DNA from: a virus
Lineage: Duplodnaviria > Heunggongvirae > Uroviricota > Caudoviricetes
Strand: one strand, 5' to 3'
DNA length: 9,089 bases
Virus record (IMG/VR): IMGVR_UViG_2667527789_000012
Below, piece by piece: positions 5,041 through 9,089 of this stretch. The translations under genes and the position numbers were made by a program. Below the pieces are notes generated by a model. It had not been told where the DNA came from and ran no database searches. It worked only from the letters and a program-made list of their open reading frames with translations. Position 1 is the stretch's first letter; the number at the start of each line of letters is the position of its first letter.

Positions 5041-5568
5041 CTAGAGACTCTCTCCTTCCTCATCAGGAATTAATTCAGCAGCACAAGCCTCGTAGGATTT
5101 TTCCTGAAGAGTGTATCGCAGGTCATCAATGGCCTGCTGTACAACGCCGACGGCCTGAGGAGTCAGGGCGCAATCGCGTTCAAGAACATCCGGAATTGTC
5201 TCCAGAACCTGGACGACAGCCTTTCTCATGGACGAATAGACGATGACTACTTCATCAACGGGGATGAGTTTTCGCTGCTCCTTTTCCAGCTTGATCCTTT
5301 CATTTTCAGATTGGTACCAGTCCTTTCTCTCTTTCGGCTCCATACGGGATGGATCATGAACAGAGTCTGCTGCCTCATGCTTCACACTAAACAGGGCTGG
5401 CCCGACATGCTGCAGGGCGTAAACGGGGTTCCCCCTGATAGTCGCAGCCACAGGAGTGTTGGCCGCGAGGAGCCGTTTTTTTACTGTGTCCCGGTGAAGC
5501 CCAAAGGCCTCAGCGATTTTAAAAACACTCCAGTAATAAGCATCACCGATCCCGCTCACATTTGACAT
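5041..5568 (-). CDS. Terminase small subunit (lambda Nu1-like, N-terminal HTH)
   Basis: Lies directly upstream of the large terminase and about 190 bp downstream of the cos-like block. It has a predicted helix-turn-helix (FKIAEAFGLHRDTVKKRL), a Nu1-like charged middle region (KDWYQSENERIKLEKEQRK) and an acidic C-terminus. Start chosen at the ATG at 5568 (MSNVSG...; GGAG at 6-nt spacing); in-frame ATGs at 5598 and 5580 are alternatives. Confidence 0.75.
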   Translation of the reverse strand: MSNVSGIGDAYYWSVFKIAEAFGLHRDTVKKRLLAANTPVAATIRGNPVYALQHVGPALFSVKHEAADSVHDPSRMEPKERKDWYQSENERIKLEKEQRKLIPVDEVVIVYSSMRKAVVQVLETIPDVLERDCALTPQAVGVVQQAIDDLRYTLQEKSYEACAAELIPDEEGESL

Positions 5569-5688
5569 AAGCAACTCCATCTGGCAGGTGAAAATCATGT
5601 TTATTTATATATTTCAATTAATTGCAAACTGGTCTAATGACAGGGAGAAAAAAATATTGTACAGGTGAAAAGAGAAATAACTTTTAAT

Positions 5689-5701
5689 TATCAATAAATT
5701 A
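5689..5701. promoter_or_regulatory. IHF-like binding site in the cosB position
   Basis: TATCAATAAATTA matches the IHF consensus WATCAAnnnnTTR. It lies in the AT-rich stretch between the cosN-like block and the small terminase start, where lambda has its I1 IHF site. Confidence 0.3.
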
Positions 5702-5744
5702 CCAAACATGCTGCCGCCGCCATGGAAATGCAAAAACTAGCCTT

Positions 5745-5780
5745 TTTCCGCGACGCTCCCGCCCCGTGGCAGGGGCCCCC
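5745..5780 (-). other. cos site core (cosN-like cohesive-end region of a lambda-type packaging site)
   Basis: In gene sense the sequence reads CACGGGGCGGGAGCGTCGCGGAAAAAGGC, closely resembling the lambda left end GGGCGGCGACCTCGCGGGTTTTCGC (recalled). Distance to the Nu1-like start is about 190 bp, as in lambda, with an AT-rich cosB-like stretch in between. Exact nick positions cannot be determined from sequence. Confidence 0.6.
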
Positions 5781-5793
5781 ACCGGGAGGACCC

Positions 5794-5820
5794 GACAGCC
5801 TGACAGCCTGACAGCCGTGA
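5794..5820. repeat. Tandem direct repeat GACAGCCT x3 (third copy degenerate) on the Rz side of cosN
   Basis: GACAGCCTGACAGCCTGACAGCCGTGA read directly, immediately after a GGGGCCCC palindrome (5772-5779). Located where a cosQ-like element or terminase/host-factor sites would be expected. Confidence 0.6.
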
Positions 5821-5952
5821 TGAGCATCTGATACAGCGCTTTACATAATGGCATAGGAATAATTCAGAAGGACATCACAGCATGCCCACACAAATTAGTG
5901 TGAGTGTCCTGTTTCTTCCTACGCACAGGACTGACGAGCATGAGGGGAAAAT

Positions 5953-6120
5953 ATGCGAACCATAAATGCCTCATCTTCAGCAATGCAACCGGCATCCGAA
6001 CAGGACGATATTGTAAATTCACCTAATTACGAGGACATTGCAGTAGTTGAATTGCAGCTCTGTATTAGCCTGACAGTGACAGAATGCGATATTGACTCTG
6101 TCACAGGTGAAATAGTTTGA
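5953..6120 (+). CDS. Hypothetical small acidic protein (55 aa); not in the ORF track
   Basis: ATG at 5953 preceded by GAGGGG at 5-nt spacing, running to TGA at 6118-6120. Translation MRTINASSSAMQPASEQDDIVNSPNYEDIAVVELQLCISLTVTECDIDSVTGEIV has 10 Asp/Glu against 1 Arg. Contains rare codons (CGA, ATA) and no promoter was identified, so coding status is uncertain. Confidence 0.3.
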   Translation: MRTINASSSAMQPASEQDDIVNSPNYEDIAVVELQLCISLTVTECDIDSVTGEIV

Positions 6121-6140
6121 ATGATTAGCAGTTATGGTGC

Positions 6141-6347
6141 TCAGTCAACCACCAGGGAATAATCCTTCGAATTCTTATCGTGCTTCACCAACGCTGCCTC
6201 AATTGCCCTGAATGCTTCCAGAGACACCTGATGTTCTATACATGCAATTACAACATCCGGGTAACTCATAGAAATGGTGCTATTAAGCATATTTTTTACA
6301 CGAATCAGATCCAACGAGAGTTCATCAGCAGATTGTTCTTTATTCAT
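6141..6347 (-). CDS. Hypothetical protein (68 aa), cos-proximal accessory gene
   Basis: ORF with GGAG at 7-nt spacing before the ATG at 6347, convergent with the 55-aa ORF (stops 20 bp apart). No family recognised; possibly the counterpart of a small Qin-prophage gene next to the Nu1 homolog. Confidence 0.5.
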
Positions 6348-6647
6348 TTTGTCGCTCCATGCGTTTGCTCGTCATCTAGCGGTTGAAATATTACTTCAAA
6401 TCTTACTGCATAAAAGAGGAAAAGTATGAAAGTTTGAGTACATCGACCTTACATACATCTGTCGGTTGCATATCCCTCCTGGATGCCAGCAAGGCTCAAT
6501 TTTGTTACGCAATCAACACTATTCATCAAAAACAGGCTTAATATTTGACATAAATCATCAACAAAACACAAAGAGGTCAGACCAGATTGAAACAATAAAC
6601 ACGATAATGCTAACTACGCGCCATCGTATCACATGGAAGGTTTACCA

Positions 6648-7058
6648 ATGGCTCAGGCTGCCATTTTTAAAGAAATATTCGATCAAGTGCGTAAAGATTT
6701 AAACTGTGAATTATTTTATTCTGAGCTAAAACGTCACAATGTCTCACTTTATATTTACTATTTAGCCACAGATAATATTCACATTGTGTTAGAAAACGAC
6801 AACATAGTGTTAGTAAAAGGACTCAAAAAGGTTGTAAATGTTAAATTCTCCAGAAACAAACATCTTATAGAGACCTCCTATAATAAGTTGAAATCAAAAG
6901 AAATCACATTTCAACAATACAGGGAAAATCTTGCTAAAGCAGGAGTTTTCCGATGGGTTACAAATATCCAGGAACACCAAAGATATTACTATGCCTTTGA
7001 TAACTCATTACTATTTACTGAAAGCATCCAGAAAACTACACAGATCTTACCACGCTAA
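6648..7058 (+). CDS. DUF1398-family prophage protein (YdfO/YbcV-like)
   Basis: 136 aa from the ATG at 6648 (GGAAGG about 6 nt upstream; the track ORF begins 5 codons earlier). AT-rich with an internally repeated architecture. It occupies the position of ydfO between the Nu1 homolog and gnsB in Qin. Family assignment is from memory and synteny. Confidence 0.55.
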
Positions 7059-7067
7059 ACCATAACG

Positions 7068-7094
7068 TCCGGCTTCTCTCACTCCTGAGCCGGA
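7068..7094 (+). terminator. Hairpin downstream of the DUF1398 gene (possible weak terminator)
   Basis: TCCGGCT ... AGCCGGA forms a 7-bp stem with a 13-nt loop, 10 nt after the stop at 7056-7058. The following sequence is only modestly U-rich. Confidence 0.3.
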
Positions 7095-7150
7095 CTGCAT
7101 TGGTTTAATAAAAACCATCAACAATTGTGATTTAGATATTCGGAACCATT

Positions 7151-7180
7151 CAAATATAACAAAACCCCGTAAAAACGAGG
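7151..7180 (-). terminator. Rho-independent terminator downstream of the gnsB-like gene
   Basis: Minus-strand sense CCTCGT-TTTT-ACGGGG (5 Watson-Crick pairs plus one G-U) followed by TTTTGTTATATTTG, about 30 nt after the gnsB-like stop. Confidence 0.4.
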
Positions 7181-7209
7181 TTTATGGATAAATTTTATTA
7201 TTGAATACA

Positions 7210-7383
7210 TCAGATTAAATTAATCTTGACATCATAGCTTTCAAGACCCGTCATTTTTTCCCGTGCGGTAAACTGAATACTGGTAACTTCTTTCCCGGTC
7301 TTTTTCTTAAGTTCAATAATTTTTTTTGTTATATATTCAGAAATATCTGCTTCTGCTTTTGTTTTTAAGTTTTCAATATTCAT
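7210..7383 (-). CDS. gnsB: GnsA/GnsB-family protein (57 aa)
   Basis: Not in the ORF track (below length cut-off). Translation MNIENLKTKAEADISEYITKKIIELKKKTGKEVTSIQFTAREKMTGLESYDVKINLI, same length as and close to recalled E. coli GnsA/GnsB (MNIEELKKQAE...KNTGKEV...RFTAREKMTGLESYDVKIKIM). RBS AGAGGAA lies 5 nt before the ATG at 7383. Confidence 0.8.
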   Translation of the reverse strand: MNIENLKTKAEADISEYITKKIIELKKKTGKEVTSIQFTAREKMTGLESYDVKINLI

Positions 7384-7431
7384 CATTTCCTCTTTTAGTC
7401 TGTTATGACTTTCCAGTTACACAGTAAGTCG

Positions 7432-7437
7432 ATTATA
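7432..7437 (-). promoter_or_regulatory. Candidate -10 hexamer (TATAAT) for the gnsB-like gene
   Basis: A perfect TATAAT on the minus strand about 50 nt upstream of the gnsB-like start; the -35 is weak (TTATCT at 17-nt spacing). Confidence 0.3.
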
Positions 7438-7554
7438 TGGTGCAAACGTGTAAAAGATAAGATGAAACATCGCAATAATCAACATACGATAGTCTAAATT
7501 TTACACAAACAGACAAAGAGAATTTTCCTGAATTATCAATACAATAGCATCAAA

Positions 7555-7785
7555 TCAACTCAAGAGCCTTATTGCTGCTTCCAGAATTTCTTCTGAAGTA
7601 ACATGTCGATCCGCGGCTACATAAATGACTTTATGATCTCCGGTCAGAGATGGAAACCCTGCGGCCATTACAGTAAGGTGTGTTTTTTCGCCATTTGGAT
7701 ATTCACGCATGATGGTGTTAACTCCAGTCATCGCTGGCACTACCACTGCTGGTTCAGAGTTAAAAAAAACTATGATTTTTTTCAT
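7555..7785 (-). CDS. Hypothetical small protein (76 aa), YnfN/YmcE-like by position
   Basis: ORF starting at the ATG at 7785 (MKKIIVFFNSEPAVVV...); the track ORF's extra 14 codons begin at a TTG. It sits between cspI and gnsB like ynfN in Qin, and its length equals that of YmcE, the GnsA neighbour. No sequence-level recognition; weak SD. Confidence 0.5.
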   Translation of the reverse strand: MKKIIVFFNSEPAVVVPAMTGVNTIMREYPNGEKTHLTVMAAGFPSLTGDHKVIYVAADRHVTSEEILEAAIRLLS

Positions 7786-7825
7786 GATGTTACCGTAGTA
7801 TGTGAGTATCCATCGAATAGATACC

Positions 7826-7868
7826 AAGCAAAAAAGCTCCCGAAGGAGCCTTCATTTTCACTTTTTTA
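7826..7868 (-). terminator. Rho-independent terminator ending the cspI transcript (hairpin is U-flanked on both strands)
   Basis: Minus-strand sense GCTCC-TTCG-GGAGC followed by TTTTTT. On the plus strand the same stem is followed by CTTCATTTTCACTTTTTT. Confidence 0.5.
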
Positions 7869-8056
7869 AATCCAACGACAGACGGCTGGCATTTAAGTAT
7901 TGTGAAATATTATCAAATGTAATCATCATTGATTTACAAAAGATACATTTTGCCCCGAAAGGATTCATGTCAGAAACATCAAAAGATGATGTTCTATACT
8001 GGGAACCATGACAACACGGGCATCTAAAGTGAATATGGTTTGTAATATTGTCTACC

Positions 8057-8269
8057 TCAAAGCGCCACTACATGAACAGCGGCAGGACCTTTAGGTCCGT
8101 TCTCAATACCAAATTCAACTTCCTGATTCTCAGTTAATGTTTTGAAATCGTTGCTCTGAATTGCTGAGAAATGGACAAACACATCTTTGCTGCCATCTTT
8201 CGGCGTGATGAAACCAAAACCTTTTTCAGGGTTAAACCATTTCACTAAACCAGTCATTTTGTTAGACAT
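8057..8269 (-). CDS. cspI: Cold-shock protein, CspA family (70 aa)
   Basis: [38 protein letters not shown]... carries the RNP1/RNP2 cold-shock-domain motifs (KGFGFI, VFVHF). AAAGGTAATAATT-ATG mirrors the cspA translation initiation region. The symbol cspI is assigned from Qin-like synteny (gnsB-ynfN-cspI-Rz) and recalled sequence. Confidence 0.85.
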
Positions 8270-8449
8270 AATTATTACCTTTTGAAGAAATTAGCCCTTG
8301 GGCAGAATGGTCCGAAAAAAAATATCAGAGAGAAAAACCAACAAGGAAATCTCAAGAGGTACAAATAATAAAATTATAACAATGACTGCTTCAGATAAAT
8401 TTGTAACAAACCAGAACACCATTAACGCATGATTAACCACCCATAGCAA
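8270..8449 (-). promoter_or_regulatory. cspI promoter and long 5' leader
   Basis: Minus-strand -35 TTGCTA (8449-8444), 17-nt spacer, -10 GTTAAT (8426-8421), similar to the cspA promoter, with AT-rich DNA upstream. Predicted start near 8414 gives a leader of about 145 nt, as expected for cold-inducible csp genes. Confidence 0.5.
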
Positions 8450-8631
8450 GGATTACTTTTGTAAAGAAAAACACAGCAATGAAAGAATAGCTTTATTTAT
8501 TAATAAAACGTGTCATTCTGATTAAGACCTTTTATCTTACCCTTAAGATTTCAGGAATTTTGGCTCATGGAAGAGTCCTTTTTATTTAAATTTTACATTC
8601 CGCGATGTAAATGTTCCGATTTAATATTACC

Positions 8632-9089
<458 letters not shown>

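What the first reader, a model, noticed from the sequence alone, without database searches (positions are those of the whole stretch)
7210..7785. GnsB-like gene, missed by the ORF track, paired with a YnfN/YmcE-like gene
A 57-aa GnsA/GnsB-family gene is tandem with an upstream 76-aa gene, both minus strand and 171 bp apart. This mirrors the chromosomal ymcE-gnsA and Qin ynfN-gnsB pairs. GnsA has been proposed, as I recall, as a toxin with YmcE as antitoxin, so this may be a small two-gene module of that kind. The gnsB-like gene has its own strong -10 (TATAAT) and terminator.
Basis: partly seen in the sequence, partly recalled or inferred. Interest (0 to 1): 0.5.

Follow-up and report, generated by a model that had tools for sequence, protein, structure and literature searches.

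The report
Known prophage gnsB and ynfN genes
These are the already catalogued gnsB and ynfN genes of a Qin/Tritos-type E. coli prophage, part of a phage-borne cold-shock and membrane-lipid gene cassette, and the evidence does not support reading them as a toxin-antitoxin pair.

Summary
gnsB (57 aa, 7210-7383, minus strand) and a 76-aa gene (7555-7785, minus strand) lie 171 bp apart. The same DNA occurs at 100% identity in many E. coli chromosomes and in phage Tritos, annotated gnsB and ynfN.

GnsB is 100% identical to K-12 GnsB. The 76-aa protein is full-length YnfN. K-12's 51-aa YnfN results from a 1-bp deletion in a T8 run.

YnfN has no similarity to YmcE. YmcE itself is frameshifted or truncated in other Escherichia lineages where gnsA stays intact.

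The toxin-antitoxin reading is not supported:
- All 26 gns loci found among 185,579 species genomes sit behind csp plus ymcF/ynfQ, but only 14 carry ynfN.
- ynfN homologues occur without gns.
- At least 418 complete genomes keep intact gnsB beside frameshifted ynfN.
- In published LF82 RNA-seq, gnsB RNA is about 4-70-fold higher than ynfN RNA.
- The confident YnfN model matches no known fold.
- Published work shows plasmid-expressed gnsB alone rescues growth.

Best reading: a prophage "moron" cassette. cspI-ynfQ is followed by a terminator, and ynfN is probably expressed by readthrough. gnsB appears to have its own promoter and terminator, and it raises unsaturated fatty acids. This is already known and of low interest.

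The parts
7210..7383 (-). gnsB, 57 aa, GnsA/GnsB family. The second of two tandem ATGs is the annotated start, and the GAGG Shine-Dalgarno spacing fits it.
   Evidence: 100% identical to K-12 GnsB. Pfam PF08178 E=3.1e-35. RefSeq annotation of identical DNA. PDB GnsA 4xo1/4xo2 E=5e-20. dN/dS 0.04-0.22.
7555..7785 (-). ynfN, full-length 76-aa form. Predicted five beta-strands plus a C-terminal helix, with no known fold.
7762..7769 (-). T8 homopolymer in codons 6-8 of ynfN. K-12 has T7 here, which truncates the ORF to 14 codons (MKKIIVFLTLNQQW*) and explains the 51-aa K-12 annotation.
   Evidence: Alignment of the window with K-12 Qin. Translation. The T8 form is exact in 1043 complete E. coli records and the T7 form in 418.
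7384..7554 (-). 171-bp ynfN-gnsB spacer. It holds a conserved block TTGATTATTG...TTAyAnA (about 7482-7445) and TATAAT (7437-7432). This is the candidate gnsB promoter and leader.
   Evidence: The block is conserved upstream of gns in E. coli and Citrobacter, including loci that lack ynfN, and upstream of gnsA. RNA-seq shows gnsB far above ynfN. The promoter assignment is inferred, not mapped.
7162..7183 (-). Intrinsic-terminator-like hairpin plus T-run immediately after gnsB.
   Evidence: Scan hit. RNA fold -11.1 kcal/mol, z=-2.2.
7827..7853 (-). Intrinsic-terminator-like hairpin (AAGGCUCC-UUCG-GGAGCUU, then a U-run) after ynfQ, lying inside the annotated 21-aa ynfR ORF (7790-7855). It separates cspI-ynfQ from ynfN.
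   Evidence: Fold -14.9 kcal/mol, z=-2.7. The hairpin at 7836-7849 was flagged. The hairpin is conserved in E. coli and Citrobacter while the ynfR ORF is not.
7858..8046 (-). ynfQ, a YmcF-like 62-aa CxxC zinc-ribbon small protein annotated with an ATT start.
   Evidence: RefSeq annotation. Pfam PF23641 E=1.3e-11 on the C-terminal part. Present upstream of gns in 26/26 loci.
8057..8269 (-). cspI, a cold-shock protein, 100% identical to K-12 CspI.
8030..8415 (-). cspA-type thermoregulator RNA, covering the cspI 5'UTR and coding region.
   Evidence: Rfam RF01766, 112.8 bits against a gathering score of 78, E=2.5e-29.

Best explanation
The region is the right-end accessory ('moron') cassette of a Tritos/cdtI/Qin-type lambdoid prophage of E. 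coli. It lies between the lysis genes and cos/terminase.

Layout on the minus strand: cspI (with a cspA-type thermoregulated 5'UTR), 10 nt, ynfQ, an intrinsic terminator (overlapped by the ynfR sORF), ynfN, 171 nt, gnsB, terminator.

Shown:
- The gene identities, the architecture, and the conservation of the hairpin.
- Invariant linkage of gns to csp-ymcF/ynfQ.
- Variable presence of ynfN.
- gnsB RNA far higher than ynfN RNA in a lysogen carrying identical DNA.

Inferred:
- ynfN is expressed at a low level by readthrough of the cspI-ynfQ terminator. This may be increased in the cold, when CspA-family proteins antiterminate.
- gnsB is transcribed from its own promoter in the spacer.

From the literature on the identical K-12 protein: GnsB raises the proportion of unsaturated fatty acids (16:1/18:1). 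It suppresses the cold-sensitive secG null and the fabA6(Ts) defects, and rescues low-temperature growth of relA fadR mutants.

The cassette therefore most likely gives the lysogen a cold and membrane-fluidity adaptation package: an RNA chaperone plus a lipid remodelling factor. YnfN is an accessory small beta-protein of unknown activity that belongs to the csp unit. It is not an antitoxin for GnsB.
For: Identity and annotation.

Thermoregulator: Rfam cspA hit upstream of and over cspI.

Architecture: tight packing cspI-10 nt-ynfQ-2 nt-ynfR-4 nt-ynfN, then 171 nt to gnsB. Terminator hairpins follow ynfQ and gnsB. The ynfQ hairpin is conserved across genera.

Linkage: 26/26 gns loci have csp and ymcF/ynfQ directly upstream, and ynfN is present in 14/26.

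Candidate promoter: a conserved block lies upstream of gns in both gnsA- and gnsB-type loci.

Expression: LF82 prophage Tritos matches window 7100-7900 at 100% identity (H16). In its RNA-seq, gnsB (LF82_0907, = window 7210-7383) reads log2 FPKM 7.6-12.3, the ynfN part 4.8-8.4 and cspI 9.0-12.7.

Position: next to cos in the phage genome.

Function: gnsA/gnsB clones alone rescue low-temperature growth, and gnsA expression was shown to raise 16:1/18:1. gnsA overexpression suppresses lapC190. ymcE/cspG are co-induced at 15 C.
Against: - No transcription start site was mapped here. The gnsB promoter is inferred from RNA abundance and conservation, and differential RNA stability or processing could contribute.
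- Cold induction of gnsB or ynfN themselves was not shown in any data I could read.
- The biochemical target of Gns proteins is unknown.
- Overexpression of gnsA/gnsB raised persister counts and lowered ATP in one preprint, so some growth-modulating effect exists.
- Pfam and PGAP label the family an 'addiction module toxin'.
Confidence: 0.75

Rival explanations
1. ynfN-gnsB is a two-gene toxin-antitoxin module. GnsB is a growth-inhibiting toxin and the upstream YnfN neutralises it, analogous to the proposed YmcE-GnsA pair.
For: Pfam names PF08178 'GnsA/GnsB toxin of bacterial toxin-antitoxin system' and PGAP calls gnsB an 'addiction module toxin'. Reviews and tools list ymcE-gnsA as a TA system, citing Wei et al. 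2015 and Yamaguchi & Inouye 2011. Overexpressed gnsA/gnsB raised persister levels and lowered ATP. ynfN sits upstream on the same strand in 14 of 16 GnsB-type loci.
Against: - YnfN is unrelated to YmcE.
- The YmcE ORF is broken in E. ruysiae, E. whittamii, Escherichia sp. E1V33 and one E. coli, while gnsA stays 91-98% conserved.
- gns occurs without ynfN in 12/26 loci: 10 gnsA-type loci and two Citrobacter gnsB-type loci.
- ynfN occurs without gns in L012/L013 and in phage PHB10.
- The K-12-type frameshift in ynfN coexists with intact gnsB in at least 418 complete genomes. It removes beta-strands 1 and 2 and part of strand 3 of the predicted fold.
- There is a 171-bp spacer and a terminator upstream of ynfN, and gnsB RNA is about 4-70-fold above ynfN RNA. 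This is the opposite of a co-transcribed pair with antitoxin in excess.
- There is no PADLOC hit.
- gnsB alone on a plasmid rescues growth.
Confidence: 0.07
2. ynfN and gnsB are functionally unrelated neighbours. ynfN is a partner or accessory of the phage csp-ynfQ unit, for example modulating Csp or zinc-ribbon function or a phage-host interaction. gnsB is an independent lipid moron that landed next to it.
For: ynfN homologues travel with csp (and a ynfQ-like gene in L012-L015) even where gns is absent. These include a second paralogue upstream of csp in L012/L014 and phage PHB10. ynfN is packed 4 nt after ynfR and 72 nt after ynfQ, but 171 nt from gnsB.
Against: This overlaps largely with the best explanation and differs only in denying any shared cold and membrane theme. 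gns is itself always behind csp-ymcF/ynfQ (26/26), so all the genes share one conserved neighbourhood.
Confidence: 0.15

Closest known systems
Qin cryptic prophage cspI-ynfQ-ynfR-ynfN-gnsB locus of E. coli K-12 (b1552-b1550)
   Same: Same genes, order, strand and spacing. The DNA is essentially identical: over the 1.2 kb aligned there are two substitutions and one indel. GnsB, CspI and YnfQ proteins are 100% identical.
   Different: The window carries T8, giving intact 76-aa YnfN. K-12 has T7, giving a frameshift and a 51-aa annotation. The window's prophage has intact terminase, portal and protease genes (Tritos/cdtI-like), whereas Qin is a cryptic remnant. The adjacent DUF1398 gene is only 78% identical to K-12 YdfO.
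Chromosomal cspG-ymcF-(ymcE)-gnsA locus of Escherichia
   Same: A paralogous csp, zinc-ribbon small protein and gns, with a conserved terminator hairpin after ymcF/ynfQ and a conserved block upstream of gns. GnsA is 67% identical to GnsB.
   Different: It has no ynfN. Only about 190 bp separate ymcF and gnsA. The annotated ymcE ORF overlaps both neighbours and runs through the terminator and the conserved block. YmcE is unrelated to YnfN and is not conserved as an ORF.
Escherichia phage Tritos (prophage of AIEC strain LF82, OV696610) and phage cdtI
   Same: 100% identity over window 7100-7900 (H16) and 98.7-98.8% over the packaging genes. The genes are annotated GnsB and YnfN. They are transcribed in the lysogen as morons.
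   Different: None of substance. In the published Table 1/S1, the label 'YnfN' is attached to locus tag LF82_0907, whose coordinates are those of gnsB.
Type II toxin-antitoxin modules (e.g. relBE, yefM-yoeB)
   Same: Two small same-strand genes on a mobile element, and the family name of Gns.
   Different: There is no overlap or short gap, no co-transcription signature, no obligatory co-occurrence, no DNA-binding antitoxin fold, and the 'toxin' is tolerated without the 'antitoxin'.

Membership tests
GnsA/GnsB family (Pfam PF08178) | Full-length match to the family HMM above the gathering score | tested here: met
   120.3 bits against a cut-off of 27, E=3.1e-35, residues 1-54 of 54.
GnsA/GnsB family (Pfam PF08178) | About 57 aa with close sequence identity to characterised GnsB/GnsA and to the solved GnsA structure | tested here: met
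   100% to K-12 GnsB, 67% to GnsA. PDB 4xo2/4xo1 E=5e-20.
GnsA/GnsB family (Pfam PF08178) | Overexpression raises unsaturated fatty acids and suppresses secG-null and fabA6 defects | not testable with these tools
   Literature on the identical K-12 protein only: Sugai et al. 2001 as cited, and the ASKA gnsB rescue.
YnfN family (PHROG 3425) | Sequence identity to YnfN and a full-length profile match | tested here: met
   C-terminal 51 aa are 100% identical to K-12 YnfN. phrog_3425 E=7.2e-54 over residues 1-76 of 76. RefSeq names the identical 76-aa protein 'protein YnfN'.
YmcE (Sfa) | Detectable sequence similarity of the 76-aa protein to YmcE | tested here: not met
   BLASTP gives no alignment at E<=100. 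In the DNA alignment, the ymcE N-terminus lines up with the ynfR/terminator region, not with ynfN.
Type II toxin-antitoxin module | Antitoxin and toxin co-transcribed as a tight bicistronic operon (overlap or short gap) | tested here: not met
   A 171-bp gap holds a conserved promoter-like block. gnsB RNA is about 4-70-fold above ynfN RNA in LF82.
Type II toxin-antitoxin module | The pair is inherited together, and the toxin is not kept without its antitoxin | tested here: not met
   ynfN is absent from 12/26 gns loci. ynfN occurs without gns. A frameshifted ynfN lies beside intact gnsB in at least 418 complete genomes.
Type II toxin-antitoxin module | Antitoxin with a known antitoxin or DNA-binding fold (RHH, HTH, AbrB, Phd/YefM) | tested here: not met
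Type II toxin-antitoxin module | Toxin arrests growth and the antitoxin relieves it | not testable with these tools
   Published plasmid expression of gnsB or gnsA alone is tolerated and rescues growth. One preprint reports more persisters and lower ATP. Wei et al. 2015 could not be read.
Prophage moron | Non-essential gene in an accessory slot of a phage genome, with its own promoter and terminator, expressed in the lysogen | tested here: met
   The slot lies between Rz and cos/terminase. There is a terminator. gnsB is transcribed far above the prophage background in LF82. The promoter itself is inferred.
cspA-type cold-shock unit | Csp gene preceded by the cspA thermoregulator 5'UTR, with gns linked downstream | tested here: met
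   Rfam RF01766 scores 112.8 bits. csp plus ymcF/ynfQ lie upstream of gns in 26/26 loci. Cold induction of gnsB itself was not tested.

The most novel reading that the evidence does not exclude
YnfN in its true 76-aa form is a small beta-rich protein of a fold not represented in the PDB. The K-12 reference allele, the one carried in EcoCyc and UniProt, is frameshifted. YnfN travels with phage-borne cold-shock genes. The terminator in front of it is a conserved, possibly Csp- or translation-sensitive gate that makes ynfN a cold-conditional gene. In the same reading, the 'YmcE antitoxin' that underlies the Pfam/PGAP 'addiction module toxin' name of the Gns family is not a real conserved protein, so the family is misnamed.
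Probability: 0.3. Interest if true: 0.35.

Novelty: already known. Interest (0 to 1): 0.15.

Why it matters
There is little new biology here. The genes are annotated in thousands of E. coli genomes, and the lipid phenotype of GnsB was published in 2001.

The useful by-products are corrective:
- The 'addiction module toxin' label of Gns proteins, and the YmcE/YnfN 'antitoxin' idea, are not backed by comparative genomics or by the expression data examined here.
- The reference K-12 YnfN (51 aa) is a frameshift remnant of a conserved 76-aa protein.
- One published moron table attributes gnsB expression to 'YnfN'.

For phage biology, the locus is a clear example of a cold-shock and membrane-lipid accessory cassette carried next to cos by lambdoid phages of Escherichia and Citrobacter.

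Tried and rejected
- YmcE similarity: BLASTP of YnfN against YmcE found nothing.
- Defence-system reading: PADLOC has no hit for GnsB, YnfN or YnfQ.
- Regulatory RNA or type I TA in the 171-bp spacer: Rfam at E<=1 found only the cspA thermoregulator in 5500-9089. The gnsB leader does not fold better than shuffles, z=0.17.
The promoter therefore remains inferred.
- ynfR as a conserved leader peptide: rejected. Most Citrobacter loci have no ATG, and the 93% E. coli variant has a premature stop, while the hairpin is conserved.
- Primary papers: Wei et al. 2015 and Sugai et al. 2001 are not held. What I say about them rests on citations in other papers and on my own recollection.

Full report
OBSERVATION

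On the minus strand there is an ORF at 7210..7386 (58 aa from the first of two tandem ATGs) and an ORF at 7555..7827 whose ATG at 7785 gives 76 aa. A megablast of window 7100-7900 finds the same DNA in 2146 of 5426 complete E. coli genomes, with 1497 records at 99% identity or more.

In E. coli ATCC 25922 the identical stretch is annotated as follows:
- gnsB at window 7210-7383, 57 aa
- ynfN at 7555-7785, 76 aa, WP_000720962.1
- ynfR at 7790-7855
- ynfQ at 7858-8046
- cspI at 8057-8269

A 57/58-aa ORF lies below the common 60-aa cut-off, which probably explains why an ORF track missed it.

IDENTITY

The 57-aa product is 100% identical to K-12 GnsB and 67% identical to GnsA. It matches Pfam PF08178 at 120 bits and the solved GnsA chains 4xo1/4xo2 at E=5e-20.

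The C-terminal 51 residues of the 76-aa product are 100% identical to K-12 YnfN. The alignment with K-12 Qin explains the length difference. K-12 has T7 where the window has T8 (7762-7769), so the K-12 reading frame stops after 14 codons (MKKIIVFLTLNQQW*). The database entry therefore starts at Met26.

Several lines support the 76-aa form as the real gene:
- Full-length 75-76-aa homologues exist down to 52% identity, with an invariant N-terminus M-K--VFFN.
- The first 25 codons show the same excess of synonymous change as the rest: pN 0.10-0.16 against pS 0.64-0.74.
- PHROG 3425 is a 76-residue profile matched end to end.
- In a confident AF2 model (pLDDT 89.9, pTM 0.77), residues 1-28 supply strands 1-3 of a five-stranded sheet.

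The exact T8 form occurs in 1043 complete E. coli records and the exact K-12 T7 form in 418.

NOT YmcE-LIKE

BLASTP of YnfN against YmcE gives no alignment even at E<=100.

At the DNA level, the cspG-ymcF-gnsA locus is paralogous to cspI-ynfQ-...-gnsB only in three parts: csp, ymcF/ynfQ with the hairpin behind it, and gns with about 90 nt upstream of it. The roughly 280 nt holding ynfN are simply absent.

The annotated ymcE ORF overlaps ymcF and gnsA and runs through the hairpin. Across Escherichia it is frameshifted (E. sp. E1V33, E. whittamii, E. ruysiae) or truncated (E. coli SCPM-O-B-8794), and it lacks its ATG in E. albertii. Meanwhile gnsA stays 91-98% identical. YmcE is therefore doubtful as a protein, and the locus does not mirror ymcE-gnsA.

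CONTEXT

The window is a Tritos/cdtI-type lambdoid prophage. On the minus strand it runs as follows:
- protease/capsid, portal, gpW-like gene, large terminase, DUF1441 (small terminase)
- the phage record ends, i.e. cos, near position 5764
- a 68-aa ybcW-like gene
- a DUF1398 gene on the plus strand
- gnsB, ynfN, ynfR, ynfQ, cspI, then Rz

The cassette thus fills the accessory slot between the lysis genes and cos.

Rfam finds the cspA thermoregulator over the cspI 5'UTR, at 112.8 bits.

The gaps are 10 nt (cspI-ynfQ), 2 nt (ynfQ-ynfR), 4 nt (ynfR-ynfN) and 171 nt (ynfN-gnsB).

A strong terminator-like hairpin with a UUCG loop and a U-run lies just after ynfQ, inside ynfR (-14.9 kcal/mol, z=-2.7). 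Another follows gnsB (-11.1 kcal/mol, z=-2.2). The first hairpin is conserved in E. coli and Citrobacter and also behind ymcF. The ynfR ORF is not conserved: most Citrobacter loci have no ATG, and the 93% E. coli variant has a stop.

CO-OCCURRENCE

A pattern scan of one genome for each of 185,579 species finds only 26 gns loci. All are in Escherichia/Shigella and Citrobacter, apart from two contigs in MAGs labelled Veillonella and Mucilaginibacter, which I take to be contamination.

All 26 have a csp gene and a ymcF/ynfQ-like gene immediately upstream on the same strand. ynfN is present in 14. None of the 10 gnsA-type loci has it, and two Citrobacter gnsB-type loci (L026, L029) lack it.

Conversely, ynfN homologues of 52-60% identity sit behind csp with no gns in the sequence available downstream. 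That sequence is 3 kb for L012/L013, while the contigs of L014/L015 end within about 240 nt of ynfN. The csp is followed by a ynfQ-like gene in L012-L015, and phage PHB10 shows the same gns-free arrangement behind csp. Some of these loci carry a second ynfN paralogue upstream of csp.

In the phage collection, YnfN is found in 8 records and GnsB in 7 of those. The constant partner of gns is csp-ymcF/ynfQ, not ynfN. ynfN is tied to csp at least as much as to gns.

EXPRESSION

Strain LF82 carries prophage Tritos with 100% identity to window 7100-7900. LF82 coordinates 1610092-1610892 correspond to window 7100-7900 (H16).

In the published RNA-seq table, log2(FPKM+5) values are:

| Locus tag | LF82 coordinates | Gene | DMEM | LB | Macrophages |
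|---|---|---|---|---|---|
| LF82_0907 | 1610202-1610375 (exactly gnsB) | gnsB | 9.7-12.3 | 7.6-8.5 | 9.9-11.3 |
| LF82_3578 | 1610547-1610702 (51-codon part of ynfN) | ynfN | 5.8-6.3 | 4.8-6.2 | 6.8-8.4 |
| not recorded | not recorded | cspI | 9.0-12.7 across all conditions | | |

So gnsB RNA is about 4-70-fold more abundant than ynfN RNA, and ynfN is roughly 8-20-fold below cspI. This fits two inferences: partial termination after ynfQ, and a separate promoter for gnsB.

The gnsA locus shows the same pattern in the same data. Raw counts are cspG 7782/8416, ymcE 544/395 and gnsA 2335/2073.

A block TTGATTATTG-N-TTAyAnA is conserved about 60-100 nt upstream of gns in E. coli gnsB, Citrobacter gns (including loci without ynfN) and gnsA. 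In the window it lies at about 7482-7445.

None of these reaches the scanner's 9/12 rule, and no transcription start was mapped. The promoter position is an inference.

In passing: the paper's Table 1 lists 'YnfN (LF82_0907)' as a moron 27-fold above background, but those coordinates are gnsB. The labels in its S1 table are shifted by one row.

FUNCTION

From the literature on the identical or paralogous K-12 proteins:
- Multicopy gnsA and gnsB raise unsaturated fatty acids and suppress fabA6(Ts) and the cold-sensitive secG null (Sugai et al. 2001, as cited).
- ASKA clones of gnsA or gnsB alone rescue low-temperature growth of relA fadR mutants, and gnsA expression restored 16:1/18:1 in the relA spoT fadR mutant.
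- gnsA overexpression suppresses lapC190.
- cspG and 'ymcE' are co-induced at 15 C.

With cspI and its thermoregulated leader directly upstream in every locus, the most economical reading is a cold and membrane-fluidity adaptation cassette carried as a prophage moron. How Gns proteins act biochemically is unknown.

A further inference from established knowledge: CspA-family proteins are transcription antiterminators (Bae et al. 2000, recalled and not read here). The conserved terminator after ynfQ could therefore be read through more in the cold, making ynfN cold-conditional.

TOXIN-ANTITOXIN READING

The TA label comes from Pfam and PGAP names and from lists that cite Wei et al. 2015 and Yamaguchi & Inouye 2011. 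I could not read Wei et al.. One preprint reports more persisters and lower ATP on overexpression.

Against the TA reading:
- The supposed antitoxins of the two paralogous loci are unrelated to each other, and one of them is not a conserved ORF.
- gns and ynfN are separable in both directions.
- At least 418 complete genomes, K-12 included, keep an intact gnsB next to a ynfN that has lost about half its beta-sheet.
- The genes are 171 bp apart with very unequal RNA levels, and the 'toxin' is the abundant one.
- gnsB alone is tolerated and beneficial on plasmids.

I put this reading at about 7%.

VERDICT

The YmcE likeness and the TA module are not supported. The locus is already known and annotated. 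Its best explanation is a phage-borne cold-shock and lipid moron cassette in which gnsB is an independently transcribed gene and ynfN belongs to the csp unit. Interest is low. The by-products worth keeping are the K-12 ynfN frameshift, the doubtful status of YmcE (and with it the 'addiction module toxin' name), and the apparently novel fold of YnfN.

Noticed in passing
window 7762-7769 (minus strand); L003 (K-12) about 2167-2173: K-12 ynfN carries a 1-bp deletion in a T8 run (T7). The reference 51-aa YnfN is therefore a frameshift remnant of a conserved 76-aa gene. The exact T8 form is in 1043 complete E. coli records and the T7 form in 418. An A7 run lies just upstream, so both tracts are slippage-prone.
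   Followed up: yes
L002 2848-3078 (K-12 ymcE); L031, L032, L035, L037, L039: The ymcE ORF, the supposed antitoxin of GnsA, is frameshifted, truncated or lacks its ATG in several Escherichia lineages while gnsA and ymcF stay intact. It overlaps the ymcF terminator hairpin and the conserved block upstream of gnsA. It is probably not a real protein-coding gene.
   Followed up: yes
window 7790-7855 (ynfR): The 21-aa ynfR ORF, a small protein detected experimentally in K-12, lies exactly over a conserved terminator hairpin. The hairpin is conserved in Citrobacter but the ORF is not. Translation of ynfR across the hairpin could influence readthrough into ynfN, whose ATG is 4 nt after the ynfR stop.
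   Followed up: partly
PMC9928086 Table 1 / S1 against S4; window 7210-7383: In the LF82 prophage moron paper, locus tag LF82_0907 is labelled 'YnfN', but its coordinates (1610202-1610375, 174 bp) are gnsB. The product labels in S1 are shifted by one row. The 27-fold 'YnfN' moron is in fact gnsB.
   Followed up: yes
window 8030-8415 (minus strand): An Rfam cspA thermoregulator (RF01766, 112.8 bits) covers the cspI 5'UTR and coding region. The prophage csp gene keeps the cold-sensing leader.
   Followed up: partly
window 6141-6347 (minus strand): A 68-aa ybcW-like gene (PHROG 657, no Pfam) corresponds to LF82_2580. That gene is strongly up in DMEM and in macrophages relative to LB (log2FC +4.9). 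It is another expressed moron of unknown function next to cos.
   Followed up: partly
window about 5764/5765: The phage Tritos, cdtI and HannyBb records begin at window 5764 or 5032, so the cos site and genome ends fall between DUF1441 (small terminase) and the 68-aa gene. The cassette is the extreme right end of the packaged genome.
   Followed up: partly
L012 2037-2261; L014 725-949: There is a second, divergent YnfN paralogue (36-55% identity) upstream of csp in loci that lack gns. YnfN-like genes may form a small family of csp-associated phage genes.
   Followed up: no
window 7445-7482 (minus strand); L016-L039 upstream of gns: A DNA block TTGATTATTG...TTAyAnA is conserved upstream of every gns gene, both gnsA and gnsB types, in Escherichia and Citrobacter. 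It could be a promoter or a regulator binding site. It is not identified with any known motif.
   Followed up: partly
window 6648-7058 (plus strand): A DUF1398 (YdfO/YbcV-like) gene lies convergent with gnsB. It has a weak PADLOC hit to a type II restriction enzyme model (E=2e-4, 18.8 bits), and PHROG 413 labels it 'head protein'. Neither label is convincing.
   Followed up: no
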